Shown here: positions 4,409 through 58,892 of the stretch, piece after piece
Layout: each line of letters starts with the position of its first letter
Position numbering within the stretch: position 1 is the first letter of the stretch
From: Patescibacteria group bacterium
Lineage (GTDB): Bacteria; Patescibacteriota; Minisyncoccia; UBA6257; 2-01-FULL-56-20
Direction of reading: 5' to 3'
Length of the DNA: 64,000 nt
Assembly (NCBI GenBank): GCA_024654525.1
Contig: JANLHI010000031.1
Span: forward strand, 18,774-82,773
Program-made: the position numbers and the translations under genes
The notes under the pieces: generated by a model
The model's input: the letters and a program-made list of their open reading frames with translations, nothing else
Database searches by the model: none
Told to the model about the DNA's origin: nothing

Positions 4409-4453
<45 letters not shown>

Positions 4454-4571: not shown

Positions 4572-4605
<34 letters not shown>

Positions 4606-10330: not shown

Positions 10331-13300
10331 ATGCATCAAAAAAAGCTTCCCACGAAAGATTTCTCGAGTTCGAAGCCGTTGGTACAACCGATAAATTTAA
10401 ATGAGGTACAGCTTGATTCATATAAGTGGTTTTTAGAAAAGGGACTCGCGGAACTTTTTCGCGAGGCTTCGCCTATTTGTGATCATACCGGAAAAGAAAT
10501 AGCCCTCTCGTTTGATGGGTATCGTTTTGACGAGCCAAAGTATGATGAAACGATGGCTCGATATAAAGATGCAACATACGAAGCGGCGTTGCGGGTAAAT
10601 GTTTCCATTGAGTATCTCAAGACGAAGCACAAAGAGACTCAGGAGATATATTTTGGAGATTTCCCCATTATGACGGAAAGGGGAACATTTATTATAAACG
10701 GAGTTGAGCGCGTGGTGGTGTCTCAGCTTATTCGTTCCGCGGGAGTGTATTTCACCGCAATACCATGGAGAGGACACAATCTTTTTGGCGCCAAGATTAT
10801 TCCAAATCGCGGTGCGTGGCTTGAATTTGAAACCGACATAGACGGTGTTATTGGCGTAAAAATCGACAGGCATCGTAAAACACCCGTGTCCGATCTCCTT
10901 CGCGTACTTGGACTTTCGAATGAAGAAATGCTCAAGACATTTGAGAATGTCGATACGGGTTCGGTGCGTTATATCGAAAACACACTTAAGAAAGATGTTG
11001 CAAAAGACAAAGATGAATCGTATCTCGAAATTTACAGACGTCTTCGTCCGGGAGATCCTGCAACCGCACAGACTGCAAAGGGACTTGTCGATGGCTTGTT
11101 CCAAAGATTTGATCGATATGACTTGGGCGAAGTAGGTCGGTTTAAAATGAATCAGCGACTCCTTCTTCCCAAAGAAAATGACACTCGTCTTCTTGAGATA
11201 AATGATATTGTGGCGATTGTACGTGAGATTATTGGTCTTAACAATAATCCCGAGGCGGGGCCGGACGATATTGATCATCTTGGTAACCGTCGCTTGAAAG
11301 CGGTGGGGGAATTGTTGCAAGGTCGTCTCCGGATAGGGCTTGCACGTTTGCGCCGTATCATCCAGGACAGAATGTCAACGCAAGCAAAGGAAGATATTCT
11401 TCCCGCACAGCTTATTAATTTCCGTCCTATCGTAGCGGTGGTGAAGGAATTTTTTGCATCATCTCAATTATCCCAGTTTATGGATCAGGTAAATCCATTG
11501 GCGGAGCTTGAGCATAAGCGTCGTATTTCCGCGCTTGGTCCCGGGGGGCTTACGCGAGAACGAGCGAGTTTCGAAGTTCGTGATGTACACCGTTCTCACT
11601 ATGGACGTATTTGTCCGATTCAAACACCGGAAGGAGCGAATATTGGTCTTATCAACTATTTGGCAAGTTTTGCAAAAATAAATCAGTTTGGATTTCTTGA
11701 AGCACCCTATGTGCGTGTGGAGAAGGGTCGTGTGACGGGTGATGTGGTATGGCTTGATGCGCTTGAAGAGGAGCGCGTGAAAATTACGCATGCGGGTGTG
11801 CCTCGCGACGAAAAAGGAAACATCACCGTATCTTTTGTCGAGGCGCGCGTGAAGGGTGATCCGGGAACTGTGGCATCAAATGAAGTTGACTATATTGATG
11901 TGGCTCCTCACGAGTTTATCAGTGTTGCGACATCTCTTATTCCTTTCTTGCAACACGATGATGCAAACCGTGCGCTTATGGGTAGTAACATGCAACGGCA
12001 GGCAGTGGGATCCGTTCGACCACAGGCTCCCTACGTGGGAACAGGAGAAGAAGAACGTGTTGCACAATATTCCGGATATGTAGTACTTGCTTCCGAAGAC
12101 GGTACCGTACTTGAAGCGGATGCGACTCATGTGAAGATGGACTACAAGAAGCTTGGTATTAAAAGCTATACGCTTCAAAAGTTTAAGCGTTCGAATCAAT
12201 TCACTTGCATTTCGCAACACCCCATCGTGGTTGCGGGGGATACGGTAAAAAAAGGAGATGTGCTTGTTGATGGCCCTTCTACGGAGAATGGTGTGCTTGC
12301 GCTTGGGCAAAATCTTCTTGTTTCGTTCATGTCGTGGGAAGGTGCAAACTTTGAAGACGCGATTATTCTTTCCGAGCGAGTAGTGCAAAATGACAATTTC
12401 TCCTCTATTCATATAGAGGATTATTATTGTGATGTTCGTGATACTAAGCTTGGTCCGGAAATTACTACGCCGGATATCCCTAATATTTCTGAAGAAAAAC
12501 TTCGCAACCTTGATGAAGAAGGAATTGTGCGTGTTGGTGCGGAGGTAAAAGCGGGTGATATTCTTGTAGGGAAAATTTCTCCGAAAGGAGAAGCGGAACT
12601 TACTGCGGAAGAACGCCTTTTGAGAGCTATTTTTGGAGAGAAGGCGCGCGATGTGAAAGATACATCTCTTACGCTTCCTCATGGAAAGAGAGGGCGTATC
12701 GTGAGTATTAAGGTTTTTGATCGTGAGCAAGGAGATAAATTGGAGCCGGGTATTATCAAACGGATTCAGGTTGAAGTCGCACAACTTCGTAAAGTGCAGG
12801 CGGGAGATAAGCTCGCCGGACGTCACGGAAATAAAGGTGTTATTTCGCAAGTACGTGCAGTTGAAGATATGCCATATCTTCCCGATGGAACTCCGGTTGA
12901 TATTATTTTGAATCCTCTTGGTGTGGTGTCGCGTATGAATTTGGGACAGGTACTTGAAACGCATCTTGGTCTCGCTGCTGCGAAACTTGGTTACCGCGCG
13001 ATAACGCCGGGGTTGGATTCGGCGAGTGAAGAAGATATCAAGAACGAATTGCGTGCGGCGGGATACCCGGAAGATGGAAAAACCGTGCTTTATGACGGAC
13101 GTACCGGAAAGCCTTTTGAAAATCGCGTTTCGGTGGGCGTTATTTATATGTTGAAACTGAACCACCTTATAGAAGACAAGGCGCATGTTCGTTCTATCGG
13201 GCCTTACTCGCTTATCACGCAACAGCCTCTTGGGGGAAAGGCGCAGTTTGGTGGACAGCGTTTCGGAGAAATGGAAGTGTGGGCGCTTGAAGGATATGGC

Positions 13301-16300
13301 GCTAAACATGTATTGCAGGAAATGCTTACCATCAAATCCGATGATGTGGTGGGACGTGCTGCGGCATACGAATCCATTATTCGTGGAGAAGTTATTAAAG
13401 AGCCGAATATTCCCGCATCATTTAATGTATTGGTGAATGAATTGAAATCGCTTGGGTTTAATATTGCTCCCATATACGAAGAAGTGGAATCTGTTCATCG
13501 TGAGAACTTTTCTGCACTTAAAATCAGCGTGGCGTCTCCGGAAAATATCAGTGAATGGTCACATGGAGAAGTTACGAAGCCTGAGACAATCAATTATCGT
13601 ACGCAACGACCTGAGAAAGACGGGCTTTTCTCGGAGCGTATTTTCGGTCCTACAAAAGATTATGAATGTTATTGCGGTAAGTATCGGCGCATTCGCTATA
13701 AAGGGGTGGTGTGTGACAAATGTGGCGTTGAAGTAACTCGAGCTTCGGTGCGACGTGAACGTATTGGTCATATTTCGCTTGCGGTGCCAGTTACTCACAT
13801 TTGGTTTTTAAAGAGCGTACCATCTCGGTTGAGTTTGATGCTTGATGTATCCTCAATGAAGCTCGAGAGGGTGGTGTATTACTCGGCGTACATTGTGACT
13901 GATGTTGATGAGACTCGGAAGCATGAGGCTCTTACGGAGCTTGAGCGTGAAGTGAAGGGTAAACTGAAAATTGTAGGTAAAGATAAAGAGGCAAAGAGCG
14001 AAGTGAATTCGGCGGCCGCAGACGTACGCGAAATGCTTGAAGGACTGAGGCGTGGACAAGTCCTTTCAGAAGGGGAATATTTCAGTTTGGCGCGCAGATT
14101 TGGAGGTGTGTTTACTGCAGGTACGGGAGCGAGCGCAATACGGAAAATTCTCGAGAAGATGGATCTTCGGAAGGAAATTCAGAGAACGGAAAAAGAAATT
14201 GAACTTTCTACCGGAAAAGTAGTGGATGCAAAACATCTTCGACGACTGAAGATGTTGAAGTCGATGCTTAAGAACGGTATTCGTCCCGAATGGATGGTAC
14301 TCACCACATTGCCGGTGCTTCCGCCCGACCTTCGTCCTATGGTGGCACTTGATGGAGGGCGTTACGCGACATCGGATTTGAATGATTTGTATCGGCGCGT
14401 TATCAATCGCAATAATCGGTTGAAGAAACTTCTTGAAATTAAAGCTCCCGATGTAATCGTGCAAAACGAAAAACGTATGTTGCAGGAAGCGGTGGATGCG
14501 CTTATCGATAATTCAGCTCGTTTCGGCACGCAACAGCTTTCCGCACAGCGAAGACCACTCCGCTCGCTCGCGGATATGCTTAAGGGAAAGCAAGGACGAT
14601 TCCGGCAAAATCTTTTGGGAAAGCGTGTGGATTATTCCGGTCGTTCCGTGATTGTGGTAGGTCCCAAACTTAAACTTGACGAATGCGGACTTCCTAAGCG
14701 TATGGCGCTCGAGCTTTTCCGTCCCTTTGTTATTTCTGAAATTGTCCGGCGTGGACTTGCACATAATATTCGTGGTGCATCGCGAGTAATTGAAGAGGGA
14801 GGGGATGACGTATGGGCTATCCTTGAGGAAATTATCAAGACGCGATATGTACTCTTGAACCGTGCACCGACATTACACAGGCTTTCTGTGCAGGCATTTC
14901 GTCCTATTCTTGTAGAAGGTCTTGCTATTCAAATTCCTCCGCTTGTCTGTGTGGCGTTTAACGCCGATTTTGACGGTGATCAGATGGCGGTACATCTTCC
15001 TCTTTCCGATGTTGCTCAGAAAGAAGCGCGCGAAGTGATGTCTGCGGCACTCAATCTTTTGAAGCCTGCGACGGGTGAACTTATTGTGAGTCCTACACAA
15101 GATATGGTATTGGGTTCGTATTATCTTACCCGATCTGATCCTGATTTTACCGGTACGCCAAAATCATTCCTTGATATCCGCGAAGCGATTCTCTCATACG
15201 ATATGGGAATAATTGCATTGCATACTCCTCTTGTCGTAAACGGGCTCGAGACAACACTTGGAAGACTTATTTTTAATGAAGCGCTTATGGGGACGGTGCC
15301 GTATGTGAATGAAGGATTCAACAAGAAAAAACTTTCTCGGTTGATTGAATCCATATTGAGTGCTCATGGCGTCGAGGTTGCGCGTGATGTGCTTGACCGT
15401 GTAAAACTTCTTGGGTTTGAGATGGCGACACTATCTGGTATCACGTGGGCTATTTCCGATCTTGCGACTCCTGTTGAAAAGGCAGATGTATTGGCTCGTT
15501 CGGAGGAAGCGGTATTACGTATTCGTGAGCAGTATCAAGATGGACTTTTGACTGTGCCGGAGCGTCGCGCGCGTGTGATTAGCGTATGGGAAGCCGCAAA
15601 AGCCGACATTGCAAAACTGGTTTCGGTTACGCTTTCTCCCACCAATCCCATTTATCAAATTGTCGATTCGGGGGCTCGTGGTTCATGGGCTCAGCCTATT
15701 CAGATGATGGGTATGAAGGGTTTGGTGCAAAATCCGAAGGGTGAAATTATAGAGCTTCCTCTTCGCTCTTCTCTTAAAGAAGGTCTTTCCGTGTTGGAAT
15801 ACTTTATTTCCACTCACGGTGCGCGTAAGGGAACGACCGATACGGCGCTCAAAACCGCTCAAGCGGGGTATCTTACTCGTCGTCTCGTGGATGTATCGCA
15901 AGATATCACTATTTCAGAGGAAGATTGCAAAACAAAGGAAGGAGTTGAGATGCGGCGTACAGGAGAAAAAGATTTTAACTTACCGTTTGGCACTCGTATT
16001 TTTTCGCGTACAGTTCTTGAAGATGTTCGTGTGGGAAAGAGGGTGGTGGTGAAAGCAGGAGAAATCGTGGATCGTGCTGCTGCCGATCTTATTGAGCAGT
16101 CTGATATAGATGTGGTGAAAATTCGTTCGCCTATTGCTTGTAAAACGTTGTATGGCATATGTGCAAAATGTTACGGCTATGATTTAAGCGATAATAAGCC
16201 CGTACAGCTTGGAACTGCGGTGGGAGTGGTTGCTGCGCAATCCATCGGTGAACCGGGAACGCAGCTTACCATGCGTACATTCCACCTTGGAGGTATGGCG

Positions 16301-17131
16301 GGTGTTGACATTACCCATGGATTGCCTCGAGTCGAAGAAATTTTCGAGGCGCGTCCTCCGAAGGGACGTGCGGCGCTTGCGCCCGCAGACGGCGTAGTAA
16401 CAAAAATTGAAGATCGTGGTGCGCTCAAGATACTTACTTTGCGATTGGAAGGGAAAAAGAAAGAAGTTGAACTGTCGGTGCCTCGTTCCGCCTTGCTTTT
16501 CACGGAAACAGGCAAAGAAGTGCATCGTGGCGATCGACTTTCGGAAGGGAATATCGACCTTCGCGAGCTTCTTGAGCTCAAAGGTATTTCTGACGTGGAG
16601 CGTTATATCGCAAGCGAAGTGCAGCAGATCTATCTTTCTGAAGGTGCCTACATTAACAATAAACATATTGATGTGATTGTACGTCAGATGTTCTCGCGTG
16701 TTCGCATAAAAGATGCGGGAGATGCACCGGATTTTGTAGCGGGTGAAATCATAGAGAAGCCCAAATTCCTTGAAGTGAATCGCGCGTTGAAAAAGGAAGG
16801 GCGAGCGCTTGCGAAAGCAGATCAGATACTTATGGGTATTACGCAGATATCTCTTACTACCGAAAGTTTCTTGTCCTCCGCATCTTTCCAAGATACCGCT
16901 CGCGTATTGGTGCGTGCCGCGGTTGAAGGGCGTGTTGATAAGCTTCGTGGCTTCAAGGAAAATGTGATTATTGGAAGGTTGATTCCGATTGGTAAGAGAA
17001 AATCATCGGTACAAGATGACGTTGCTGATGAACCGGAAAATATAAAAGAAGAGGAAGAGGGGAAAGTCGAGTCTTCCTCGGATGATTCTCAAAAGGAGAA
17101 AGGAGGGGTTGTCGAGGAAATCTCGGGTTGA
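10331..17131 (+). CDS. rpoBC: fused DNA-directed RNA polymerase beta-beta' (rpoB-rpoC in one 2266-aa ORF)
   Basis: The N-terminal ~1050 aa is RpoB (GPGGLTRERA, ICPIQTPEGANIG, HLIEDKAHVRSIGPYSLITQQPLGGKAQFGGQRFGEMEVWALE). From about nt 13489 it is RpoC (ISVASPENISEWSHGEVTKPETINYRT, zinc finger CYCGKY...CDKCGVEVT, NADFDGDQM). There is no stop or frameshift at the junction PIYEEVE|SVHRENFSALKI. Confidence 0.9.
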   Translation: MHQKKLPTKDFSSSKPLVQPINLNEVQLDSYKWFLEKGLAELFREASPICDHTGKEIALSFDGYRFDEPKYDETMARYKDATYEAALRVNVSIEYLKTKHKETQEIYFGDFPIMTERGTFIINGVERVVVSQLIRSAGVYFTAIPWRGHNLFGAKIIPNRGAWLEFETDIDGVIGVKIDRHRKTPVSDLLRVLGLSNEEMLKTFENVDTGSVRYIENTLKKDVAKDKDESYLEIYRRLRPGDPATAQTAKGLVDGLFQRFDRYDLGEVGRFKMNQRLLLPKENDTRLLEINDIVAIVREIIGLNNNPEAGPDDIDHLGNRRLKAVGELLQGRLRIGLARLRRIIQDRMSTQAKEDILPAQLINFRPIVAVVKEFFASSQLSQFMDQVNPLAELEHKRRISALGPGGLTRERASFEVRDVHRSHYGRICPIQTPEGANIGLINYLASFAKINQFGFLEAPYVRVEKGRVTGDVVWLDALEEERVKITHAGVPRDEKGNITVSFVEARVKGDPGTVASNEVDYIDVAPHEFISVATSLIPFLQHDDANRALMGSNMQRQAVGSVRPQAPYVGTGEEERVAQYSGYVVLASEDGTVLEADATHVKMDYKKLGIKSYTLQKFKRSNQFTCISQHPIVVAGDTVKKGDVLVDGPSTENGVLALGQNLLVSFMSWEGANFEDAIILSERVVQNDNFSSIHIEDYYCDVRDTKLGPEITTPDIPNISEEKLRNLDEEGIVRVGAEVKAGDILVGKISPKGEAELTAEERLLRAIFGEKARDVKDTSLTLPHGKRGRIVSIKVFDREQGDKLEPGIIKRIQVEVAQLRKVQAGDKLAGRHGNKGVISQVRAVEDMPYLPDGTPVDIILNPLGVVSRMNLGQVLETHLGLAAAKLGYRAITPGLDSASEEDIKNELRAAGYPEDGKTVLYDGRTGKPFENRVSVGVIYMLKLNHLIEDKAHVRSIGPYSLITQQPLGGKAQFGGQRFGEMEVWALEGYGAKHVLQEMLTIKSDDVVGRAAAYESIIRGEVIKEPNIPASFNVLVNELKSLGFNIAPIYEEVESVHRENFSALKISVASPENISEWSHGEVTKPETINYRTQRPEKDGLFSERIFGPTKDYECYCGKYRRIRYKGVVCDKCGVEVTRASVRRERIGHISLAVPVTHIWFLKSVPSRLSLMLDVSSMKLERVVYYSAYIVTDVDETRKHEALTELEREVKGKLKIVGKDKEAKSEVNSAAADVREMLEGLRRGQVLSEGEYFSLARRFGGVFTAGTGASAIRKILEKMDLRKEIQRTEKEIELSTGKVVDAKHLRRLKMLKSMLKNGIRPEWMVLTTLPVLPPDLRPMVALDGGRYATSDLNDLYRRVINRNNRLKKLLEIKAPDVIVQNEKRMLQEAVDALIDNSARFGTQQLSAQRRPLRSLADMLKGKQGRFRQNLLGKRVDYSGRSVIVVGPKLKLDECGLPKRMALELFRPFVISEIVRRGLAHNIRGASRVIEEGGDDVWAILEEIIKTRYVLLNRAPTLHRLSVQAFRPILVEGLAIQIPPLVCVAFNADFDGDQMAVHLPLSDVAQKEAREVMSAALNLLKPATGELIVSPTQDMVLGSYYLTRSDPDFTGTPKSFLDIREAILSYDMGIIALHTPLVVNGLETTLGRLIFNEALMGTVPYVNEGFNKKKLSRLIESILSAHGVEVARDVLDRVKLLGFEMATLSGITWAISDLATPVEKADVLARSEEAVLRIREQYQDGLLTVPERRARVISVWEAAKADIAKLVSVTLSPTNPIYQIVDSGARGSWAQPIQMMGMKGLVQNPKGEIIELPLRSSLKEGLSVLEYFISTHGARKGTTDTALKTAQAGYLTRRLVDVSQDITISEEDCKTKEGVEMRRTGEKDFNLPFGTRIFSRTVLEDVRVGKRVVVKAGEIVDRAAADLIEQSDIDVVKIRSPIACKTLYGICAKCYGYDLSDNKPVQLGTAVGVVAAQSIGEPGTQLTMRTFHLGGMAGVDITHGLPRVEEIFEARPPKGRAALAPADGVVTKIEDRGALKILTLRLEGKKKEVELSVPRSALLFTETGKEVHRGDRLSEGNIDLRELLELKGISDVERYIASEVQQIYLSEGAYINNKHIDVIVRQMFSRVRIKDAGDAPDFVAGEIIEKPKFLEVNRALKKEGRALAKADQILMGITQISLTTESFLSSASFQDTARVLVRAAVEGRVDKLRGFKENVIIGRLIPIGKRKSSVQDDVADEPENIKEEEEGKVESSSDDSQKEKGGVVEEISG

Positions 17132-24392: not shown

Positions 24393-26207
24393 TCAAAGTG
24401 GGATTTGGTTGTTTTTTCTTTCATGGGGCTCAAGACGGATTTGTTTTCCCTCGATTTCTTTTTTAATTCCTGCCACAAATTCATTGATACTTGGTTCATT
24501 CGTTTGTTTTCCATCAGAAGTTACGAACGGGGCTATGGTATAAGGTCTCACATTCACTGTATCCGTTTTTTCTTCACGTTCTCCGATTATGACCATATAC
24601 GGAATTTTCTGCATTTCCGCTGCGCGGATGCGTTTCCCCAATGTTTCATCCGCATGTTTCATTTCCACGCGGACACCTTCTTTTTGGAGCGCATCGCGTA
24701 CTTTTGCGCCATAGTCGGCGAATTTGTCGCTCACGGGGATTATTGCCACTTGTATGGGGGAAAGCCAGAGGGGAAACGCGCCCGCGAAGTGTTCGATAAT
24801 AATGGCGAGATAGCGTTCGATAGCGCCCATAATTGCGGCGTGGAGCATCACAATGCGCTCATCCTCGCTTTTCTCATTCACGCAGGTAAGGTTGAAACGC
24901 TCCGGCATATTCATGTCGAGCTGAATGGTTGCAACCTGCCACTCCCGTCCGATGGAATCTTTTCCCATAAAATCTATTTTGGGACCATAGAAAGCGGCTT
25001 CTCCAGGAGCTTCAGGTGCGTCCACTCCTTTCTCGCGGGCGATGTCGCGAAGTATTCCCTCGGCTTTTTTCCAACTCGAGGGGTTGCCGAGATATTTCTC
25101 GGGGTGCTTAGGGTCATGGAGCGAGAGCCGTACTTTGAGTTCGAACCCGATAGCGCCGTAGAATTCATGCACGATATCCCAAATTTTCAAAAACTCTTCC
25201 TTTACTTGTGATTCGCGGCAGAACACATGCGCATCATCCTGCGTGATGCAGCGTACGCGCGCGAGTCCGGCAAGCTCGCCACTCTGCTCGTCGCGGTAGA
25301 CCATGGTGGTATTCGCATAGCGCTGGGGAAGGTCGCGATAGCTCCACTTTTTGCGGGCGTAGATTTGCGTGTGGTGGGGGCAGTTCATCGGCTTCATCGC
25401 AAACTCGTGGCCTTCCCTTGTCGTAATACGGAAGAGTTCGTCTTTAAACTTATCCCAGTGGCCACTCCGCTCGTAGAGGTCTTTCTTGGTGATATGAGGG
25501 ATTTCAACTCGCTCATACCCGCGTGCGCTGCGGAGTTCCCAGACAAAGGCGTCAAGCGTATTCCTGAGAAGCGTGCCTTTCGGAGTCCAAAGAGGGAGTC
25601 CTGCGCCCACGAGTTCGGAGAACGTAAAGAGGTCAAGTGCCGGACCTAGTTTTTTGTGGTCCCGCTTTTCCGCCTCCGCGCGCATCGCGAGGTATTCATC
25701 GAGTTCCTTCTTCGTCGCGAACGCGAGCCCATAAATGCGGGTAAGCATTTTGTTTTTCTCGTCTCCACGCCAGTATGCGCCCGCTACACGGTCGAGTTTG
25801 AAACTGTGTGGATCAATCTCGGCAAGGGGGAGTGTATGCCCTCCTTTGCAGAGATCTACAAACCCACCGCAGGTGTAGAAGGTAAGTGTTTTCTTTTCCT
25901 TGGCGAATTCATTCGCGAGTTCCATCTTATATTTATTCCAATCAAACTCTTTTTTTACTTCCTCGAGCGTGACGGTGTTGCTCGTCCACTCCGTCCAGCG
26001 CGGCAAAAGCTCCTGCATTTTCTTTTCGATTGTGAGAAGGTCGTTTTCAGAAATTTGCGCAGGTAACTCAAAATCCTGATAAAACCCGTTCTCGATTGCA
26101 GGGCCGATGGCGTTTTGCGCGCCCGGGTAAAGTTCCCGTACCGCCATAGCGAGGAGATGGGCGAGGGAGTGGCGAATGACTTCGATATTTTCGTGTGTGA
26201 TCTTCAT
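24393..26207 (-). CDS. thrS: threonyl-tRNA synthetase (lacks the N-terminal TGS domain)
   Basis: HSLAHLL (editing-domain start), class II motifs, HRAIMGAIERY-type; 604 aa. Confidence 0.9.
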   Translation of the reverse strand: MKITHENIEVIRHSLAHLLAMAVRELYPGAQNAIGPAIENGFYQDFELPAQISENDLLTIEKKMQELLPRWTEWTSNTVTLEEVKKEFDWNKYKMELANEFAKEKKTLTFYTCGGFVDLCKGGHTLPLAEIDPHSFKLDRVAGAYWRGDEKNKMLTRIYGLAFATKKELDEYLAMRAEAEKRDHKKLGPALDLFTFSELVGAGLPLWTPKGTLLRNTLDAFVWELRSARGYERVEIPHITKKDLYERSGHWDKFKDELFRITTREGHEFAMKPMNCPHHTQIYARKKWSYRDLPQRYANTTMVYRDEQSGELAGLARVRCITQDDAHVFCRESQVKEEFLKIWDIVHEFYGAIGFELKVRLSLHDPKHPEKYLGNPSSWKKAEGILRDIAREKGVDAPEAPGEAAFYGPKIDFMGKDSIGREWQVATIQLDMNMPERFNLTCVNEKSEDERIVMLHAAIMGAIERYLAIIIEHFAGAFPLWLSPIQVAIIPVSDKFADYGAKVRDALQKEGVRVEMKHADETLGKRIRAAEMQKIPYMVIIGEREEKTDTVNVRPYTIAPFVTSDGKQTNEPSINEFVAGIKKEIEGKQIRLEPHERKNNQIPL

Positions 26208-44322: not shown

Positions 44323-46218
44323 ATGACTTCCAGCGAAATTCGGCAAAAGTTTTTGGAGTTTTTTGCGTCGCGCGGGCATGCGATTATTCCTTCGGCGTCG
44401 CTGATACCCGAGAATGACCCCACTACGCTTTTTACGGGAAGCGGGATGCAGCCGATGGTGCCGTATCTTTTGGGTGCGAATCATCCTGAAGGAGTGCGGA
44501 TTGCGGACTCGCAAAAATCGTTTCGTACGGTTGATATTGATGAGGTGGGGGACAATCGCCATACCACGTTTTTCGAAATGCTTGGGAACTGGTCACTCGG
44601 TGATTATTTTAAAAGAGAGCAATTGCCGTGGGTGTTTGAATTTTTAACGAGCGAGATAGGACTTGACCCGAAACGGCTCTATGTAACCGCTTTTTTTGGT
44701 GATGAAAAAAACAACCTCCCGCGCGATACGGAATCGGCGGAGATATGGAAGCGGCTTTTTGAAGAAAAGGGCATTGATGCCGGAGTGGCGCTTATTGGTT
44801 CGGAAGATGATGGGTATATGTGTGGTATGAAGAACGGCGAGCGCATCTTTTTTTACAATGCGGAAAAGAATTGGTGGAGTCGTGCGGGGTTGCCGGAAAA
44901 TATGCCCGCAGGGGAGCCGGGAGGGCCGGACTCGGAGATTTTTTATGATTTCGGTTTAGAGCATAATCCGCAATTCGGTGAGCAATGCCACCCGAATTGC
45001 GACTGTGGAAGATTTTTGGAAATCGGGAACAGCGTGTTTATGGAATATGTAAAGAAATCGGATGGTTCGTTTGCCCCGCTTCCGAAAAAAAATGTGGATT
45101 TCGGCGGAGGACTGGAGCGTATTGCGATGGCGGCGGCGAATATTCCCGATATTATTGCGATCTGCCACCGCTCCATCCTTGATGCGCTTGAGGCAATGTC
45201 CGGAAAAAAATATGATGCCGGTTCTCCGAACGCGGCGGCGTTTCGAATTGTGGCGGACCACGTGAAAGCCACGGCATTTTTAATCGGTGACGGCGTATTA
45301 CCCTCAAACACCGAGCGTGGCTACTTTGTGCGTCGTCTCCTACGCCGGGCAATCCGGCACGCGGATACACTGGGTATAAAAGAGTCGGGATTCGCCACGC
45401 TTGTCGATGCGGCCCTTTTGCCGTACGCGACAGCGTATCCCGAGACATATAACGCGCGTGAAGCCATAAAGAAAGAAGTGACAAAAGAGGAGGAAAAATT
45501 TCGAAAGACGTTGAAAGAAGGTCTTCGTGAATTCGAAAAGATTTCGAAGAACGGAGTTGTTTCGGGGAAAGATGCTTTTATACTCTTTTCGACATACGGA
45601 TTTCCGTTTGAGGTTACGCTCGAGTTGACGAAGGAGAGAAAAATCGCAGTGAAAGAAGATGAGTTTAAAGTGGAGATGAAAAAACATCAAAACCTTTCTC
45701 GTACATCGTCCGCGGGAACGTTCAAGGGCGGTCTCGCCGATTCATCCGAGAAGACAATTCGGTTGCATACTGCGCATCACTTGTTACTTAAGGCATTGCA
45801 GATTGTGTTGGGTGATGGCGTGAAACAGCGGGGGAGTAATATTACACAAGAACGATTGCGTATGGATTTTACGTACGAGGGTAAAATGACCGACGTACAG
45901 AAGAAAGAAGTGGAGCGAATTGTGAATGAAAAGATTGCGGAGGATTTGCCGGTGATTCGGAGTGAGATGGTGCTTGAAGATGCGGAGAAGCTTCATGCAG
46001 AACATGAGTTTGGAGCAAAATATCCTTCTCGTGTGTCGGTGTATTCGGTTGGTCCAAAGTCAGCTACGCTTGAAAATCCGCAGTTTGACAAGGCATTTTC
46101 GATAGAATTTTGCGGAGGTCCTCATGTGATGCATACCGGAGAGATTGGGGAATTCACCATTAAAAAAGAGGAGGCGGTGGCCGCTGGAATAAGAAGAATT
46201 CGCGGAGTGATTGAGTAG
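44323..46218 (+). CDS. alaS: alanyl-tRNA synthetase (catalytic, tRNA-recognition and editing domains; lacks C-Ala domain)
   Basis: FFASRGHAIIPSASLIP, FTGSGMQPMVPY, HTAHHLL...CGGPHV editing-domain zinc motifs; 631 aa. Confidence 0.9.
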   Translation: MTSSEIRQKFLEFFASRGHAIIPSASLIPENDPTTLFTGSGMQPMVPYLLGANHPEGVRIADSQKSFRTVDIDEVGDNRHTTFFEMLGNWSLGDYFKREQLPWVFEFLTSEIGLDPKRLYVTAFFGDEKNNLPRDTESAEIWKRLFEEKGIDAGVALIGSEDDGYMCGMKNGERIFFYNAEKNWWSRAGLPENMPAGEPGGPDSEIFYDFGLEHNPQFGEQCHPNCDCGRFLEIGNSVFMEYVKKSDGSFAPLPKKNVDFGGGLERIAMAAANIPDIIAICHRSILDALEAMSGKKYDAGSPNAAAFRIVADHVKATAFLIGDGVLPSNTERGYFVRRLLRRAIRHADTLGIKESGFATLVDAALLPYATAYPETYNAREAIKKEVTKEEEKFRKTLKEGLREFEKISKNGVVSGKDAFILFSTYGFPFEVTLELTKERKIAVKEDEFKVEMKKHQNLSRTSSAGTFKGGLADSSEKTIRLHTAHHLLLKALQIVLGDGVKQRGSNITQERLRMDFTYEGKMTDVQKKEVERIVNEKIAEDLPVIRSEMVLEDAEKLHAEHEFGAKYPSRVSVYSVGPKSATLENPQFDKAFSIEFCGGPHVMHTGEIGEFTIKKEEAVAAGIRRIRGVIE

Positions 46219-54745: not shown

Positions 54746-55222
54746 TTATTCCATTTTCACCTTCAGTTTTTTCGATTTTTTCCGCACCAATTTCGGGAGT
54801 CGTATCGAAAGAATTCCATTTTTAAACTTCACATCCGCTTCTTCGGGGTTTATCTCTTGCGGAAGTATCACTGATCGGGAAAAACGTCCCCAATAGCATT
54901 CTCGGTAGAAATAATCCTCGTCGAGCACTTGTTGTTCTCGTTGTCGTGCTCCGCGGATGGTAACCGAGTCGTTGGTAACGTCAATATCAATATCATCCGG
55001 ATTAACGCCTGCGATGGTAGACTCGATGACTATTTCAGAGGGTGTTTGATATACATCAACAGTCAGCTGTCCTTCGGGTTCTTCGTCCTGAGAGGTTTTG
55101 GTTTTTATCGAACGAGATGTTGTTGTTCCTCCCGCTTTAGTGAGCTCCGCACTTATCTCCGGTGCCTGGACTATCTCCATATCGGCACGCTCTTCCCCGT
55201 TGTGTTTTATGTCGTCGGTCAT
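54746..55222 (-). CDS. Hsp20/alpha-crystallin family small heat-shock protein
   Basis: LTVDVYQTPSEIVIESTIAGVNPDDIDIDV...GILSIRLPK alpha-crystallin domain. Confidence 0.85.
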   Translation of the reverse strand: MTDDIKHNGEERADMEIVQAPEISAELTKAGGTTTSRSIKTKTSQDEEPEGQLTVDVYQTPSEIVIESTIAGVNPDDIDIDVTNDSVTIRGARQREQQVLDEDYFYRECYWGRFSRSVILPQEINPEEADVKFKNGILSIRLPKLVRKKSKKLKVKME

Positions 55223-55254
55223 GGTTATGATAATATTTTTTTTCGTAAGGATTA

Positions 55255-55968
55255 TTACACCGCTTTTTTATTAAGACTTTCAAAGTCATTAAGCACAAAA
55301 AATCCTACAATGAGTACTAAGAGTACCGGATATGCAAACTCATCATGTATCAGTATAAGGTAATTGAAACATGCGTGCAATACGGTTGCAATCACCAACC
55401 CTCCCACAATAAAGCGTTTTGCATTGAATTCACGGATACTGATTGCCCAAAAATATCCCACTATTCCCGAGGTGAGCGTGTGAAGCAAGGTAGCTCCTAT
55501 AAAACGAAGGGAAAGAGTTTCAAATACATTCCCGAAAAAATTTATGTGGTAAGGAGAGATACCGTTCAGAACTCCTATGTTTTCGACAGTGGCGAATCCA
55601 AGTGCGGCAACCACAGTATAAATCATGGCATCTACGGGTTCGTCGAATGCGGGATTTTTATGTACGGACACGTATGCGGCGGTGAATTTTATGATTTCTT
55701 CTATTCCTGCGAAGATAATCAGTCCGATTGCGATGGTGATGAATGAAAAAATCTGCGGTGAGGAAGCGGGGGATAGTGTCTCAATAGGGATGAAAAGGGC
55801 ATTTACCAAGAGTTGTAATCCCAGCGCGATTATCGAGAACGCCGCGCCTACGATAAACGTCCAAAGTATTACTCGGCGAGGTTCGGGGTGTAAATCTTCG
55901 TGGAGATAAAACATTAACCATGCGAACGCGGGGATCATTCCGAAAAACAAAATGAGAAACGTTACCAT
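55255..55968 (-). CDS. PrsW-family intramembrane metalloprotease-like protein
   Basis: Polytopic; IEEIIKF (EExxK), GFATVENIG (FxxxEN) and HTLTSGIVG (H-box) motifs. Confidence 0.55.
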   Translation of the reverse strand: MVTFLILFFGMIPAFAWLMFYLHEDLHPEPRRVILWTFIVGAAFSIIALGLQLLVNALFIPIETLSPASSPQIFSFITIAIGLIIFAGIEEIIKFTAAYVSVHKNPAFDEPVDAMIYTVVAALGFATVENIGVLNGISPYHINFFGNVFETLSLRFIGATLLHTLTSGIVGYFWAISIREFNAKRFIVGGLVIATVLHACFNYLILIHDEFAYPVLLVLIVGFFVLNDFESLNKKAV

Positions 55969-58892
55969 GGTTTTGTCATGAGAAGGTTTTTAGGGTCTAT
56001 TTTCTCATAGATTGATTCGGTGATAAAAGGCATAAAAGGATGCAATATGATAAGTGAGTCCATAAGGATGGAGTTGAGTATATGGCGTGCAACTTCTGCC
56101 TTTTCTCGTGTGGTTTTGTTGGGAATCTTGTGGGGTTTTGCGGGTGTACCATCTTCGGCAAGCGGGGGGGTTACTTTCTGGAGTTTGGGTTTATAATGTT
56201 CGATGATCGTGTCTGCAAACGTGTGCCAGACATAGTGATATGCCTTTTCGGCGGCGAGGTGAACTTCAAACTTTTCGATATGTTTTCCGACTTCTGTTTT
56301 TATTTTCTTCGCTTCCGCAAGAAATTTTTTATCTGTTGCGGTGAATTTATATTTTTTTGGAATTTGATACGCGGGTGGGTGAGTGGAATCATGAATTTCC
56401 GTTTTATTTTGATACATCAAAATAAAACGCGCTATATTCCACAACTTTGTGGCAAAATTACGATAACCTCGAATTTTATCCTCGGAGATGAGTATATCGT
56501 TTCCGGCAGTGTTTCCCATGACGAGTGCCATGCGCACCGCGTCGGTGCCATATTCTTCGGCGACACCAAGCGGGTCGATTACGTTGCCTTTTGACTTTGA
56601 CATTTTTTGACGATCTTTATCACGTACAAGACCGTGGAGATATACGGTACGAAAGGGGACTTCTCCCGTGCGATAGAGTCCGAACATTATCATGCGTGCC
56701 ACCCAGAAGAAAAGAATGTCGTGTCCCGTTTCCATCACGCTTGTCGGATAAAATGTTTTGAGGTCTTTGCTTGTAGTAGGAATCCTTACTCCTTGTTCCT
56801 TATTCTTTGTTTCTTGAGACGCTAAAAGTGTTGCGAATGGCCATTGTCCTGAAGAAAACCATGTGTCGAATACGTCCGGGTCTTGTTCGTAAAGATCATT
56901 CTTGCATTTCAGGCAGGGATCAAGAATATCGAATTCGGTAAATCCTGACTTCTCGCTTTGACGAGCAATCATTTGCTCCATACTCCATTTTTTAGTGCGC
57001 TTGAGAATGGCGTGAATGGTTTCGATGTGCGTCACTATCACGATATTTTTATGTCGGTGCGTGGTACGGTGTTCGCGAAACGCACTCCATGTACGTTCCT
57101 CGAAATCTTTAAAACTTTCGCCTCCCGGCGGGGCTTTTTCGTATGACTGAAATATGTCTCCGTAGAGCGCGCGTCTTTCGGTGTGGTACATGCCCTGTGC
57201 GATTCCCACATTTCTTCCGCGGAGTTCTTGTGCGGGAATAATACGTGCGTTGGTGCCGTGCGCGATGATTTCCGCGGTGTGCCGTGCGCGGTGAAGATCG
57301 GAAGTGATAATTGCCTCAATTTTCCATGCGCGGAGTCGTGTGGCGAGGGTTCCTGCATAAGCAATGCCCGCGTTGTTTAAGGGGGGATTTGCATGTCCAT
57401 GCCCGCGTTCTTCCTTGTTCCAGTCCGTTTCGCCATGACGCACTAAAAACAATTTCGCTTTCGGAGTAGCGTTTACTTTTATTTCGCCACAAGAGGCGCA
57501 GAACCATGCAGGAATACGGATTCCCCACACGATTTGGCGTGAGATGTTCCAGTCGCGGATATTTTCCATCCAGTGAAGAAGTATCTTTTTTGCATGTGTC
57601 GGATGAAATTTCATTTTCCCCGATGTTGCCGCTTTGACCGCCATGTCACGGAGTGACACTCCGTGATGGTGGATTTTGTTCGCGGGCAGGCGGTTCGTTT
57701 TTTGAGCCTGTGTTTTTAGGGCGCGTGTCATTCGCACGAACCATTGTTTTTTGATTTGCGGTTCAATGAGTGTATTGCACTTATAGCATGCGCGAACTGT
57801 ATGGCGGTACGCTTCATCGGTACGCGCAAGAAGTCCTTTAAGTCGCAGTTTTTCCACAATCTTCGGGCGCGCCTCAAGTATTTTCATTCCTGCGAACTCG
57901 CCGGCAATAGGAAGGAGCCGTCCGCGTTCATCAATAACCTGTTCTTTATCGAGTCCGTGGCGCATGGCAATGTCAAAGTCTACGGTACTGTGCCATGGAG
58001 TGATAGTCATCACACCGCTCCCGAACTCCATATCCATTGCTTCATCCTTAATGATGGTTGCGGTAAGAGGACCGTTAATCCACTCAAGATGAAGTTGTTC
58101 GCCGTTTTTGTATTCTTTATATCGCGTATCATCCGGGTGCATTACCACGTACTTATCGCCGAATTTTGTTTCGGGACGCGCGGTGCCGATGGTGAAGGGT
58201 CCATAACGGAAATAATAGAACGAATCGGTGCGTTCTATGTCTTTAATCTCCAAATCGGAGAGGGAGGTTTGATGTTTCGGACACCAACTGATAATGCCGG
58301 CATCTCGTTCCACAAGCCCATCGCGATACATTTTTTCGAATGTGTCGTACACGATTCTTACAATATCGGGATCAAGAGTGAACTTTTCCCGTGACCAGTC
58401 GCATGAAGCGCCGAGTTTGCGAAGCTGGGATTCCATAACTTTCTTGTTCTGTTGGGTAAAGTCCCAGATTTCTTTCCAGAGCGTTTCCCTGTCCATCGCA
58501 AATCGGTTGCGCCCTTCTTTCTCGAGTTTCTTATCGAATACCACCTGGGTTTCGAAACCCGCGTGATCCGCACCCGGAAGCCAGAGCGTTTTCTTGCCTT
58601 TCATACGCGCATAGCGCGTCATAATGTCCTGAAGTGTCACAAACACCGCGTGCCCCAAATGAAGCGAGCCATTCGCGTTCGGAGGGGGCATGATAATCGT
58701 AAAAGGATCTTCTCTTTTTGCGGAAGAGGTAAGCTTGGAATTTTTAGTGAGGGATTTGCTTTTTTTTACTCCTCGCTCCTTATTCTTTGTCGCTAAGTTG
58801 TCCGGATTAAAATATCCCGATGACTCCCATTTTTTATAAATAGCGTCTTCAATCGCTTTATGATTATAGCGAGGGTCGAGTGGTTCGTGCAT
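55962..58892 (-). CDS. valS: valyl-tRNA synthetase carrying an inserted histidine-phosphatase domain
   Basis: PPPNANGSLHLGHA (HIGH), CP1 editing region, WGIRIPAWF, DTWFSSGQWPF, KMSKSKGNVIDP, anticodon-binding domain; 976 aa including an ~200-aa insert. Confidence 0.9.
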   Translation of the reverse strand: MHEPLDPRYNHKAIEDAIYKKWESSGYFNPDNLATKNKERGVKKSKSLTKNSKLTSSAKREDPFTIIMPPPNANGSLHLGHAVFVTLQDIMTRYARMKGKKTLWLPGADHAGFETQVVFDKKLEKEGRNRFAMDRETLWKEIWDFTQQNKKVMESQLRKLGASCDWSREKFTLDPDIVRIVYDTFEKMYRDGLVERDAGIISWCPKHQTSLSDLEIKDIERTDSFYYFRYGPFTIGTARPETKFGDKYVVMHPDDTRYKEYKNGEQLHLEWINGPLTATIIKDEAMDMEFGSGVMTITPWHSTVDFDIAMRHGLDKEQVIDERGRLLPIAGEFAGMKILEARPKIVEKLRLKGLLARTDEAYRHTVRACYKCNTLIEPQIKKQWFVRMTRALKTQAQKTNRLPANKIHHHGVSLRDMAVKAATSGKMKFHPTHAKKILLHWMENIRDWNISRQIVWGIRIPAWFCASCGEIKVNATPKAKLFLVRHGETDWNKEERGHGHANPPLNNAGIAYAGTLATRLRAWKIEAIITSDLHRARHTAEIIAHGTNARIIPAQELRGRNVGIAQGMYHTERRALYGDIFQSYEKAPPGGESFKDFEERTWSAFREHRTTHRHKNIVIVTHIETIHAILKRTKKWSMEQMIARQSEKSGFTEFDILDPCLKCKNDLYEQDPDVFDTWFSSGQWPFATLLASQETKNKEQGVRIPTTSKDLKTFYPTSVMETGHDILFFWVARMIMFGLYRTGEVPFRTVYLHGLVRDKDRQKMSKSKGNVIDPLGVAEEYGTDAVRMALVMGNTAGNDILISEDKIRGYRNFATKLWNIARFILMYQNKTEIHDSTHPPAYQIPKKYKFTATDKKFLAEAKKIKTEVGKHIEKFEVHLAAEKAYHYVWHTFADTIIEHYKPKLQKVTPPLAEDGTPAKPHKIPNKTTREKAEVARHILNSILMDSLIILHPFMPFITESIYEKIDPKNLLMTKPW
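56922..57458 (-). other. histidine-phosphatase (phosphoglycerate-mutase family) domain inserted in-frame within valS
   Basis: LFLVRHGETDWN (RHG catalytic His), ITSDLHRARHTA, GGESFKDFEER, IVIVTHIETIHAIL (second catalytic His). Bounded by CASCGEI and CLKCKND. Confidence 0.65.

What the first reader, a model, noticed from the sequence alone, without database searches (positions are those of the whole stretch)
56865..57500. Complete histidine-phosphatase (PGAM-family) domain inserted inside valyl-tRNA synthetase, within its zinc knuckle
The insert sits in valS between the conserved WGIRIPAWF and DTWFSS blocks, in a loop of roughly 35 aa in canonical ValRS. About 200 aa are inserted in-frame, carrying all hallmark motifs of the histidine phosphatase superfamily (LVRHGETDWN, SDLHRARHTA, GGESF, VTHIETIHAIL). 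The insert is bracketed by CASCGEI and CLKCKND, so it sits inside the four-cysteine knuckle. There are no stop codons and no intein splicing motifs (no C/S...HN-C junction), so it is predicted to be a stable catalytic domain fused into the synthetase. A phosphatase embedded in an aaRS is unusual. Candidate roles are hydrolysis of a nucleotide or 2',3'-cyclic phosphate, or a moonlighting regulatory function.
Basis: partly seen in the sequence, partly recalled or inferred. Interest (0 to 1): 0.8.

Follow-up and report, generated by a model that had tools for sequence, protein, structure and literature searches.

The report
Phosphatase domain built into valyl-tRNA synthetase
An essential translation enzyme (valyl-tRNA synthetase) of an uncultivated Patescibacteria bacterium carries a complete, apparently active histidine-phosphatase domain grafted into one of its zinc-binding loops; more than a hundred relatives share this layout, no paper I could search describes it, and its purpose is unknown.

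Summary
Window 55962-58892 (-) is one uninterrupted 976-aa valS gene that passes NCBI's ValRS equivalog cut-offs. About 190 aa (aa 470-659) sit at the tip of the CP3 zinc hairpin, between CASC and CLKC. They form a full His_Phos_1 domain (E 1e-43) with every catalytic residue (R485, H486, R535, E592, H622). AlphaFold2 confidence (pLDDT) over the domain is 93-98.

It is not an assembly artefact, intein or recent transfer. The protein is identical to NCBI MCR4328697.1. Of the 119 closest 90%-identity cluster representatives, 112 carry the domain at the same site. They come from Liptonbacteria, Wolfebacteria, Colwellbacteria and Paceibacterota, and their catalytic residues are 98-100% conserved.

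The pattern is wider than this gene:
- Other Patescibacteria ValRS and IleRS carry 1-4 such domains at four or more sites.
- Free-standing copies still carry the ValRS knuckle halves. They lie next to valS or in ribosomal-protein operons.

Most likely this is a bifunctional ValRS with a PhoE/CobC-like phosphomonoesterase tied to aminoacylation. The substrate is unknown. The main rival is an independent phosphatase that merely resides in the gene, as in mycobacterial RnhC. I found no published description, so I rate it a new variant of a known kind (aaRS domain accretion).

The parts
55962..58892 (-). valS: 976-aa valine--tRNA ligase with an internal His_Phos_1 domain (identical to NCBI MCR4328697.1)
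   Evidence: ORF. NCBIfam valS equivalogs NF004349 score 763.6 against cut-off 704, and TIGR00422 698 against 612.1. The AF2 model best matches T. thermophilus ValRS 1gax_A, TM 0.74. 100% identical to P0396 = MCR4328697.1.
56916..57485 (-). Inserted segment, aa 470-659, lying between the two CxxC halves of the CP3 zinc knuckle
   Evidence: Alignment with insert-free orthologues P0496, P0501, P0513 and P0464. Backbone identity is 61-64% on both sides of the insert. Translation checked.
56937..57452 (-). His_Phos_1 (PF00300) domain, aa 481-652
   Evidence: Pfam E 2.2e-41, profile positions 1-177 of 194. pLDDT 93-98. Nearest solved sequences are PhoE 1ebb/1h2e (1.2e-17), S. pombe PGAM, CobC and PspA.
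57489..57500 (-). N-terminal half of the zinc knuckle, C465-A-S-C468
   Evidence: The module alignment A1 has C468 and both Cys of the C-terminal half in at least 90% of 19 sequences. The same CxxC is present in canonical ValRS.
56904..56915 (-). C-terminal half of the zinc knuckle, C660-L-K-C663
   Evidence: C660 and C663 are each conserved in 98% of 112 fused ValRS.
57435..57440 (-). R485-H486 of the RHG motif (H486 is the predicted phospho-accepting nucleophile)
   Evidence: Invariant in alignment A1. H486 is conserved in 98% of 112 fused ValRS. The nucleophile role follows from established knowledge of the histidine phosphatase superfamily.
57288..57290 (-). R535, the second phosphate-binding arginine
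   Evidence: 100% conserved in 112 sequences.
57117..57119 (-). E592, the predicted general acid
   Evidence: 100% conserved in 112 sequences.
57027..57029 (-). H622, the second catalytic histidine
   Evidence: 100% conserved in 112 sequences.
57501..57545 (-). End of the CP2-3 linker and the beta strand 'ISRQIVWGIRIPAWF', immediately upstream of the knuckle
   Evidence: In yeast IleRS the homologous linker 'ARDWNVSRNRYWG' lines the tRNA 3'-end / reveromycin pocket (PMC7955072, read).
58650..58661 (-). HIGH signature (HLGH, aa 78-81) of the synthetase active site
56592..56606 (-). KMSKS signature (aa 763-767)
54746..55968 (-). Context only: PrsW-like protease (55255-55968) and HSP20 (54746-55222) downstream of valS. 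These serve as synteny markers of the orthologous locus.
   Evidence: The same valS-PrsW-HSP20 order is seen in fused relatives L001, L002 and L089, and in the insert-free Ryanbacteria orthologue L094-L096.

Best explanation
SHOWN.
- The gene is the housekeeping valS orthologue of a Patescibacteria (Paceibacteria/Liptonbacteria-like) genome.
- An intact, independently folding, PhoE/CobC-like branch-1 histidine-phosphatase domain has been grafted onto the tip of the CP3 zinc-ribbon hairpin. The two CxxC halves clamp the domain's N- and C-termini together.
- The synthetase part keeps HIGH, KMSKS, the CP1 editing domain and the anticodon-binding domain.
- The phosphatase part keeps the whole catalytic set (R485, H486, G487, N492, R535, E592, H622).
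- The architecture is old and maintained by selection across a large clade.

INFERRED.
- The protein is bifunctional. It charges tRNA-Val in the normal way. The extra lobe hydrolyses a phosphomonoester through a phospho-His486 intermediate, with E592 as the general acid.
- The lobe is attached by the face opposite its active site. This follows from the fold topology: RHG lies at the C-terminal end of strand beta1. The active site should therefore point away from the ValRS body and be open to outside substrates, rather than channel to the aminoacylation site.
- The phosphatase activity is functionally tied to class-Ia aminoacylation or translation, not just any cellular chore. The reason is that the same kind of domain has entered ValRS and IleRS repeatedly, at several sites and in up to four copies, and that free-standing derivatives lie directly upstream of valS or inside ribosomal-protein operons.
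- The conserved part is essentially only the phosphate-binding core, and the substrate 'cap' is variable. This suggests that specificity comes from tethering rather than from a tailored pocket.
- My leading candidate substrate is a nucleotide-type phosphate ester met at the synthetase, such as a 3'-(2'-)phosphorylated tRNA or nucleotide end. This last step is a guess.

CONFIDENCE. About 0.95 for the anatomy, about 0.85 for a catalytically active phosphatase, about 0.5 for a functional tie to aminoacylation, and at most 0.15 for any particular substrate.
For: - ValRS identity and integrity.
- Orthology: valS-PrsW-HSP20 synteny is shared with the insert-free Ryanbacteria gene, with 61-64% backbone identity on both sides of the insert.
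- Domain identity and fold.
- Catalytic residues are invariant in 19 modules and 98-100% conserved in 112 fused ValRS whose modules share only a median 49% identity, minimum 31%.
- Of 60 complete embedded or free copies, including those in multi-copy proteins, 55 keep the full catalytic signature RHG-N-R-E-H.
- Clade-wide retention: 112 of 119 nearest cluster representatives are fused. Source names include Liptonbacteria, Wolfebacteria, Colwellbacteria, Pacebacteria and Paceibacterota. GTDB MAGs of Liptonbacteria, Moraniibacteriota and Sungiibacteriota carry it too.
- Recurrence: in my sample 42 ValRS and 19 IleRS sequences (the IleRS count includes cluster members) host 1, 2 or 4 copies at four or more sites.
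- Embedded domains fall into several separate groups on a rough tree.
- Free modules keep the knuckle halves and a 'DLYE(Q)D' vestige of ValRS and nest among the ValRS inserts.
- One free module lies 3 nt upstream of a valS that is itself fused. One lies between rpsJ and rplC. One lies just past the S13-S11-S4-rpoA-L17-L13-S9 cluster.
- The cap region aa 563-591 is poorly conserved.
Against:
- The nearest characterised relatives (PhoE, CobC, PspA) act on small metabolites.
- The domain is not basic: its pI is about 7.0 against 9.2 for the ValRS body. That gives no sign of RNA binding.
- The domain evolves faster (median 41% identity to the window) than the Rossmann fold (75%), CP1 (63%) or the anticodon-binding domain (53%).
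- Two other free modules sit in unrelated or only loosely related contexts: glycosyl/methyl-transferases, and a HIT protein plus a HisRS-like gene.
- The best-studied analogue, mycobacterial RnhC (RNase HI plus a CobC-like acid phosphatase), shows functional dissociation of its two domains (PMC7466739; bioRxiv 10.1101/2022.11.09.515703).
- Other possible hosts (LeuRS, MetRS, non-aaRS proteins) were not surveyed systematically. The apparent restriction to ValRS and IleRS could partly reflect my query.
Confidence: 0.5

Rival explanations
1. Independent housekeeping phosphatase that merely resides in valS. A broad-specificity PhoE/CobC-type metabolic phosphatase was captured in a tolerant surface loop of an essential, constitutively expressed gene. 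It was then fixed by drift or co-expression in small-genome, small-population Patescibacteria. The two activities have no mechanistic connection.
For: - The closest characterised relatives are small-molecule phosphatases.
- The domain evolves faster than the rest of ValRS and is not basic.
- Some free copies lie in non-translation contexts.
- There is a direct precedent. The RNase HI and CobC-like phosphatase domains of MSMEG_4305/RnhC are functionally dissociated and were proposed to have been fixed by drift (PMC7466739). The phosphatase phenotypes there are independent of RNase H activity.
Against: - Drift does not readily explain repeated insertion at four or more sites in two paralogous synthetases.
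- It does not readily explain tandem amplification to as many as four catalytically intact copies.
- It does not readily explain a free copy retained immediately upstream of an already fused valS, or a free copy placed between rpsJ and rplC.
Confidence: 0.33
2. Non-catalytic structural role. The domain would serve as an oligomerisation, scaffolding or ligand-sensing module that binds a phosphorylated ligand and regulates ValRS, and hydrolysis would be irrelevant.
For: - Many branch-1 histidine phosphatases are dimers or tetramers (general knowledge).
- The domain is rigidly clamped, with short linkers and high junction pLDDT.
- In a few two-copy proteins one copy has lost a catalytic residue: P0156_1 E>Q, P0137_2 H>N, P0241_1 E>P, and P0159_2 RHS with an Arg>Ser change.
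Against: The complete catalytic set is 98-100% conserved across 112 sequences, while the rest of the domain drifts to 31-49% identity. That is the signature of selection on catalysis.
Confidence: 0.07
3. Selfish in-frame mobile insertion: an intein-like or other mobile element that targets conserved essential genes.
For: The occurrence is reminiscent of intein distribution. There are multiple sites, multiple copies, essential host genes, and presence/absence differences among relatives.
Against: - No Hint, intein or endonuclease domain, no C/S...HN-C junctions, and no terminal direct or inverted repeats beyond chance.
- GC3 of the insert (0.495) equals that of the rest of the gene (0.48).
- The domain tree roughly tracks the host tree in the window's clade, e.g. 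the window groups with P0123 in both.
- Phosphatase catalytic residues would not be maintained by a parasite.
Confidence: 0.04
4. Assembly or annotation artefact: a chimeric join of a phosphatase gene and valS.
For: None beyond the MAG origin of the sequence. One relative (L001) has a frameshift in the domain at an A-run in a Flye-style long-read contig.
Against: - The same in-frame architecture appears in 112 independent 90%-identity clusters from NCBI, JGI, ENA and Logan.
- It appears in six GTDB species representatives.
- Backbone homology is continuous on both sides of the insert.
Confidence: 0.01

Closest known systems
Canonical bacterial valyl-tRNA synthetase (e.g. Thermus thermophilus ValRS, PDB 1GAX)
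   Same: Same enzyme family and overall fold: Foldseek E 4e-48, TM 0.74 normalised to the target. It shares HIGH/KMSKS, the CP1 editing domain, the anticodon-binding domain and the CxxC...CxxC zinc hairpin after the WGxxIP strand.
   Different: A roughly 190-aa second catalytic domain sits at the hairpin tip. The C-terminal coiled-coil arm is absent, as it also is in the insert-free orthologue P0464. The CP1 motif is altered to 'VMTITPWHS'.
PhoE / CobC-type broad-specificity histidine phosphatases (Geobacillus PhoE 1EBB/1H2E; alpha-ribazole-5'-phosphate phosphatase)
   Same: These are the best solved-structure sequence matches, at 1e-17 to 1e-12. The size is similar (about 180 aa), as are the RHG...R...E...H core and the short cap. 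The best NCBIfam match is ribazole_cobC.
   Different: It scores below every equivalog cut-off, e.g. 102 against 162.9 for CobC. It is embedded in a synthetase and bracketed by a zinc knuckle. The cap residues are not conserved.
Mycobacterial RnhC / Rv2228c / MSMEG_4305 (RNase HI fused to a CobC-like acid phosphatase)
   Same: A PhoE/CobC-like histidine phosphatase is covalently joined to a nucleic-acid-handling enzyme. NCBIfam NF005567 is the second-best phosphatase hit at 87 bits.
   Different: RnhC is an end-to-end fusion with a variable linker, not an internal insertion. It is restricted to Actinomycetales, and its two domains are functionally dissociated (PMC7466739; bioRxiv 10.1101/2022.11.09.515703).
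IleRS with an internal GNAT acetyltransferase domain (NCBIfam NF040702 'ileS_w_GNAT')
   Same: It is a precedent for a class-Ia synthetase carrying an extra catalytic domain and being recognised as its own annotation class. The model appears.
   Different: The guest domain is different (GNAT rather than histidine phosphatase). The window protein scores 130 against a cut-off of 1999, so it is not a member.
Inteins in essential genes
   Same: An in-frame insertion of an autonomous domain into a conserved region of an essential protein, sometimes at several sites.
   Different: No Hint fold, no splicing junction residues and no homing endonuclease. The insert is predicted to remain in the mature protein.

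Membership tests
Valine--tRNA ligase (ValRS) | Scores above the curated equivalog cut-offs | tested here: met
   NF004349 scores 763.6 against 704, and TIGR00422 698 against 612.1, despite the insertion.
Valine--tRNA ligase (ValRS) | Class-I signatures HIGH and KMSKS, CP1 editing domain, anticodon-binding domain | tested here: met
   HLGH at aa 78, KMSKS at aa 763, Anticodon_1 at aa 854-976. CP1 is present but with a variant motif 'GSGVMTITPWHSTVD'; the distal Asp is kept.
Valine--tRNA ligase (ValRS) | Orthologous position (the housekeeping copy, not an extra paralogue) | tested here: met
   The valS-PrsW-HSP20 synteny is shared with the insert-free Ryanbacteria valS. Backbone identity is 61-64%. 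Only 64 kb of this genome was seen, so a second valS elsewhere cannot be excluded.
Valine--tRNA ligase (ValRS) | Aminoacylates tRNA-Val | not testable with these tools
   Requires biochemistry.
Histidine phosphatase superfamily, branch 1 (PF00300) | Profile match above the gathering score over the whole domain | tested here: met
   146.5 bits against 21.7, profile positions 1-179 of 194.
Histidine phosphatase superfamily, branch 1 (PF00300) | Catalytic RHG histidine, two arginines, acid Glu and second His | tested here: met
   R485, H486, R535, E592 and H622 are present and 98-100% conserved in 112 relatives.
Histidine phosphatase superfamily, branch 1 (PF00300) | Alpha/beta fold of the family | tested here: met
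   The AF2 model is confident (pLDDT 93-98) with alternating strand/helix elements. Sequence matches solved PhoE, PGAM and CobC chains. No separate fold search was run on the excised domain.
Histidine phosphatase superfamily, branch 1 (PF00300) | Phosphatase activity | not testable with these tools
   Requires an enzyme assay.
Cofactor-dependent phosphoglycerate mutase (dPGM) | Scores above the dPGM equivalog cut-offs | tested here: not met
   The best dPGM-type models score 50-74 bits against cut-offs of 225-421. The module consensus from the LRERxxG motif to GGES contains no WRRS-type motif. That such a motif forms the second phosphate/carboxylate site of dPGM is from my own knowledge.
Alpha-ribazole phosphatase CobC | TIGR03162 equivalog cut-off | tested here: not met
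   102.1 bits against 162.9.
Phosphohistidine phosphatase SixA | TIGR00249 cut-off | tested here: not met
   25 bits against 74.5.
Intein | Hint domain; N-terminal Cys/Ser and C-terminal His-Asn followed by Cys/Ser/Thr | tested here: not met
   No Hint or intein Pfam family. No HN[CST] anywhere in the protein.
Known anti-phage defence components (PADLOC) | Match to any PADLOC model | tested here: not met
   No families matched the insert or two free modules.

The most novel reading that the evidence does not exclude
The embedded phosphatase could be a built-in repair or immunity activity for the translation apparatus. Held on ValRS (and IleRS), it would remove blocking phosphates from macromolecular substrates. 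One candidate is 3'-phosphate, 2',3'-cyclic-derived or pyrophosphate groups on tRNA CCA ends, of the kind installed by toxSAS toxins (bioRxiv 10.1101/2021.04.30.441581; PMC11245113) or left by tRNases. Another is a phosphoserine placed on the synthetase's own KMSKS region by HipA-type kinases. Specificity would come from tethering to the tRNA-binding enzyme rather than from the phosphatase pocket. That would explain the variable cap, the multiple sites and copies around the catalytic body, and the free copies in ribosomal-protein operons.
Probability: 0.12. Interest if true: 0.9.

Novelty: new variant of a known kind. Interest (0 to 1): 0.66.

Why it matters
- It would add a second, conserved catalytic centre to an essential translation enzyme across a major branch of the uncultivated Patescibacteria. 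It would also point to an unrecognised link between phosphate-ester hydrolysis and the charging of the branched-chain tRNAs (Val, Ile).
- If the substrate turns out to be tRNA or the synthetase itself, this would be a new kind of translation repair or immunity.
- There is a practical consequence. NCBI names these proteins only 'class I tRNA ligase family protein', which could make ValRS look absent in name-based CPR metabolic reconstructions.
- It shows that the CP3 zinc-hairpin tip of class-Ia synthetases tolerates a 20-kDa guest domain, and in relatives three in tandem. That is useful for protein engineering.

Tried and rejected
- Intein or mobile element. No Hint domain, no HN-C junction, no flanking repeats, and GC3 equal to the host gene. 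Rejected.
- Recent horizontal acquisition, suggested by a GC bump (0.53-0.55). The bump is explained by an Arg/His/Ala/Gly-rich, Lys-poor composition, and GC3 is unchanged. Rejected.
- Assembly chimera. Rejected on the strength of 112 independent clusters.
- 'All homologues are partial or split genes'. This turned out to be a property of the search tool. Hits were never longer than about 1.75 times the query: at most 536 aa for a 306-aa query and 629 aa for a 360-aa query. The full-length query returned full-length fused proteins. The one real split (L001) is a single frameshift at an A-run in a long-read-style contig.
- dPGM, CobC, PspA or SixA identity. All score below cut-off.
- RNA-binding charge signature on the domain. 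Not found; pI is about 7.
- Link between the insert and the unusual CP1 editing motif. The variant occurs with and without the insert. Rejected.
- Defence-system membership. No PADLOC hit. The only PHROG hit is a family of unknown function.
- Literature. Five searches pairing synthetase terms with histidine phosphatase, phosphoglycerate mutase, CPR or Patescibacteria found no description. Subscription-only papers are not covered.
- AFDB fold search. The library was unavailable.
- Geometry of the phosphatase active site relative to the tRNA path. This could not be computed because model coordinates are not exposed.


Full report
1. THE OBSERVATION

The minus-strand ORF 55962..58892 encodes 976 aa without interruption. 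Pfam finds tRNA-synt_1 (E 1.6e-112) split into two stretches, Anticodon_1, and between the stretches a full-length His_Phos_1 match (aa 481-652, profile 1-177 of 194, E 2.2e-41). The excised segment alone scores 9.6e-43.

NCBIfam still recognises the whole protein as ValRS above the curated equivalog cut-offs: 763.6 against 704, and 698 against 612.1.

In insert-free ValRS the WGxxIP strand and the DxxDTWFSS motif are about 38-40 aa apart and enclose a CxxC...CxxC zinc hairpin, e.g. 'WFCAKCGEAAVSEKTPDRCSKCDGSILEQDPDV'. Here they are 217 aa apart, and the extra residues lie between 'CASCGEIKV' and 'DPCLKC'. The net insertion is about 180-190 aa.

2. REAL, NOT AN ARTEFACT, INTEIN OR RECENT TRANSFER

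- The protein is 100% identical to NCBI MCR4328697.1, 'class I tRNA ligase family protein [Patescibacteria group bacterium]'.
- With the full-length protein as query, 112 of the 119 best 90%-identity cluster representatives other than the window's own sequence (48-73% identical, drawn from NCBI, JGI, ENA and Logan) carry His_Phos_1 at the same position. Source names include Candidatus Liptonbacteria, Wolfebacteria, Colwellbacteria, Pacebacteria, Paceibacterota and Parcubacteria.
- A scan of GTDB species representatives found full-length fused valS in MAGs of Liptonbacteria, Moraniibacteriota and Sungiibacteriota, among others.
- The insert-free Ryanbacteria orthologue lies in the same valS-PrsW-HSP20 synteny and is 61-64% identical on both sides of the insertion point. 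The fused gene is therefore the orthologous housekeeping valS.
- There is no Hint/intein domain, no HN-C junction and no terminal repeat beyond chance. GC3 of the insert (0.495) matches the rest of the gene (0.48). The local GC bump reflects amino-acid composition.
- My first homologue search returned only fragments. That was a length filter in the tool: hits never exceeded about 1.75 times the query length. The single split gene I inspected (L001) has one frameshift at an A-run.

3. ANATOMY

The insertion site is the zinc motif of the CP3 subdomain. It directly follows the CP2-3 linker 'DWNISRQIVWG'. In yeast IleRS the homologous linker lines the tRNA 3'-end / reveromycin pocket, and T. thermophilus IleRS CP3 carries a zinc motif (PMC7955072 and PMC7191050).

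AlphaFold2 gives mean pLDDT 86.4 and pTM 0.84. The insert scores pLDDT 93-98 and the junctions are confident. The backbone matches T. thermophilus ValRS 1GAX with TM 0.74.

The domain's first strand (LFLVRHG) starts about 10 residues after CxxCG. Its last strand (FTEFDI) runs into the second CxxC after 3 residues. The knuckle therefore clamps both termini. Because RHG lies at the C-terminal end of strand beta1, the active site should lie on the face distal to the attachment. This is inferred from the fold topology and was not measured.

4. IS THE PHOSPHATASE ALIVE?

- In 19 modules, R30, H31, G32, N37, R80, E137 and H167 (module numbering) are invariant.
- In 112 fused ValRS, H486 is 98% conserved and R535, E592 and H622 are each 100% conserved, while the modules share only a median 49% identity, minimum 31%.
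- The domain evolves faster (median 41% identity to the window) than the Rossmann fold (75%), CP1 (63%) or the anticodon-binding domain (53%).
- Its substrate-cap region (aa 563-591) is poorly conserved.

Selection is therefore focused on the catalytic core.

The nearest solved sequences are PhoE (1e-17), S. pombe PGAM, CobC / alpha-ribazole phosphatase and PspA. Every specific NCBIfam equivalog (CobC, dPGM, PspA, SixA, GpmB) is below its cut-off. It is a generic PhoE/CobC-like phosphomonoesterase, not a mutase.

5. THE WIDER PATTERN

An exhaustive profile search of 1.84 billion representatives, followed by Pfam and NCBIfam scans and local domain mapping, gave the following.

- In my sample, 42 ValRS and 19 IleRS sequences host such domains (the IleRS count includes cluster members).
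- ValRS hosts carry one (37), two (4) or four (1) copies.
- Every IleRS host carries two copies.
- The sites are: (a) the CP3 hairpin tip, as here; (b) after the QWF motif upstream of the CP2-3 linker (P0150, P0137, P0121); (c) after the WF(S/E)SG helix (ValRS P0057, IleRS P0274); (d) the start of the anticodon-binding domain in IleRS (P0274).
- Of 60 complete copies, 55 keep the full catalytic signature.
- IleRS hosts that carry a source name are from Patescibacteria or Nomurabacteria, apart from one MAG protein labelled Candidatus Methylomirabilis sp..
- A rough neighbour-joining tree splits the embedded domains into several groups interleaved with free phosphatases. This suggests more than one capture plus intragenic duplication. 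Deep branches of that tree are not reliable.

Free-standing proteins of about 210-235 aa keep both CxxC halves and a 'CGxDLYE(Q)D' vestige of the ValRS sequence that follows the knuckle. They nest among the ValRS inserts. I read them as fission or duplication products of the fused gene.

Their genomic contexts vary:
- between rpsJ and rplC, downstream of tuf;
- just beyond the S13-S11-S4-rpoA-L17-L13-S9 cluster;
- 3 nt upstream of a valS that is itself fused, with the two copies 46% identical;
- next to a HIT protein and a HisRS-like gene;
- among glycosyl- and methyl-transferases.

6. HOW IT MOST LIKELY WORKS

Shown: a functional-looking ValRS plus a catalytically intact phosphatase lobe, conserved across a clade.

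Inferred: a bifunctional enzyme whose phosphatase hydrolyses a phosphomonoester through phospho-His486. I think a functional tie to class-Ia aminoacylation is more likely than not (about 0.5), for these reasons:
- the recurrence at several sites and in several copies in two paralogous synthetases;
- the free copies beside valS and in ribosomal-protein operons;
- the pattern of a conserved core with a variable cap, which fits specificity by tethering.

The substrate is unknown. A nucleotide-type ester or a tRNA 3'-end phosphate is my leading guess, and it is only a guess. The domain is not basic (pI about 7.0 against 9.2 for the body). It matches no known defence component.

The main rival (about 0.33) is an unrelated housekeeping phosphatase fixed inside a tolerant loop. 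This is what was concluded for the RNase HI-CobC fusion RnhC/MSMEG_4305 (PMC7466739; bioRxiv 10.1101/2022.11.09.515703). A purely structural role, a selfish element and an artefact are all unlikely for the reasons given above.

7. COMPARISON WITH KNOWN SYSTEMS, AND NOVELTY

The protein is a member of ValRS and of histidine-phosphatase branch 1. All testable defining features were met. It is not a member of dPGM, CobC, SixA or the inteins. Domain accretion by synthetases is well known, and NCBIfam even has an 'ileS_w_GNAT' class.

I found no paper describing a histidine phosphatase inside ValRS or IleRS. The sequences are public but generically named. I therefore rate the finding a new variant of a known kind, of real interest to aaRS and CPR specialists. 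Its importance depends on the still unknown substrate.

Noticed in passing
window 1300-4729 (+): The 23S rRNA gene spans 3430 nt against a 2925-nt Rfam model with full model coverage. It therefore contains about 500 nt of insertion(s); rRNA insertions and introns are common in CPR bacteria (my own knowledge). A 5S rRNA follows at 4977-5094.
   Followed up: no
window 10331-17131 (+): A single 2266-aa ORF encodes both RNA polymerase beta (Rpb2-type domains, aa 23-1046) and beta' (Rpb1-type domains, aa 1058-2146). This is an rpoB-rpoC fusion.
   Followed up: no
window about 57950-58020 (-), ValRS aa 291-306: The CP1 editing-site motif reads 'GSGVMTITPWHSTVD' instead of the canonical 'GTGVVKITPAHDxxD' (conserved Lys lost, Ala>Trp, first Asp>Ser). 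The 'VMT..PWH' variant occurs in about half of the relatives, both with and without the phosphatase insert, so it is unrelated to the insert. It may mean altered editing.
   Followed up: partly
window 55962-58892 (-), ValRS aa 33-60, 394-412 and 690-710: There are additional short lineage-specific segments with low model confidence, including a Lys/Ser-rich N-terminal stretch (pLDDT below 50). The protein also lacks the C-terminal coiled-coil tRNA-binding arm (no PF10458).
   Followed up: no
window 24393-26207 (-) and 44323-46218 (+): ThrRS and a short (631-aa) AlaRS in the same window carry no phosphatase insertion.
   Followed up: partly
L088 703-5319 (protein P0150, aa about 620-860): A 1538-aa ValRS with two His_Phos domains has a further segment of about 240 aa with no Pfam assignment, lying between the first phosphatase and the CP2-3 linker. 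A PemK toxin gene lies just upstream.
   Followed up: no
L089 7001-10413: A free zinc-knuckle phosphatase gene ends 3 nt before the start of a valS that itself contains the insert. The two phosphatase copies are 46% identical.
   Followed up: yes
P0005 (534 aa, on a 5.3-kb contig): This protein begins with about 60 non-ValRS residues, followed by the phosphatase domain and the C-terminal half of ValRS. It may be a valS split at the insertion point.
   Followed up: no
L005 10265-10954: Two bAvd genes (accessory proteins of diversity-generating retroelements) lie about 2 kb from the free phosphatase module P0073.
   Followed up: no
L087 (1.06-Mb contig, ENA ERZ25074184 contig_3): An IleRS with two phosphatase domains sits on what may be a near-complete small genome that also encodes a 1476-aa SLH-domain protein, POR and DAHP synthase. 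Its taxonomy was not established.
   Followed up: no
tool behaviour: the search for homologous proteins returned no hit longer than about 1.75 times the query length. Searching with a fragment therefore hides full-length multi-domain relatives.
   Followed up: yes
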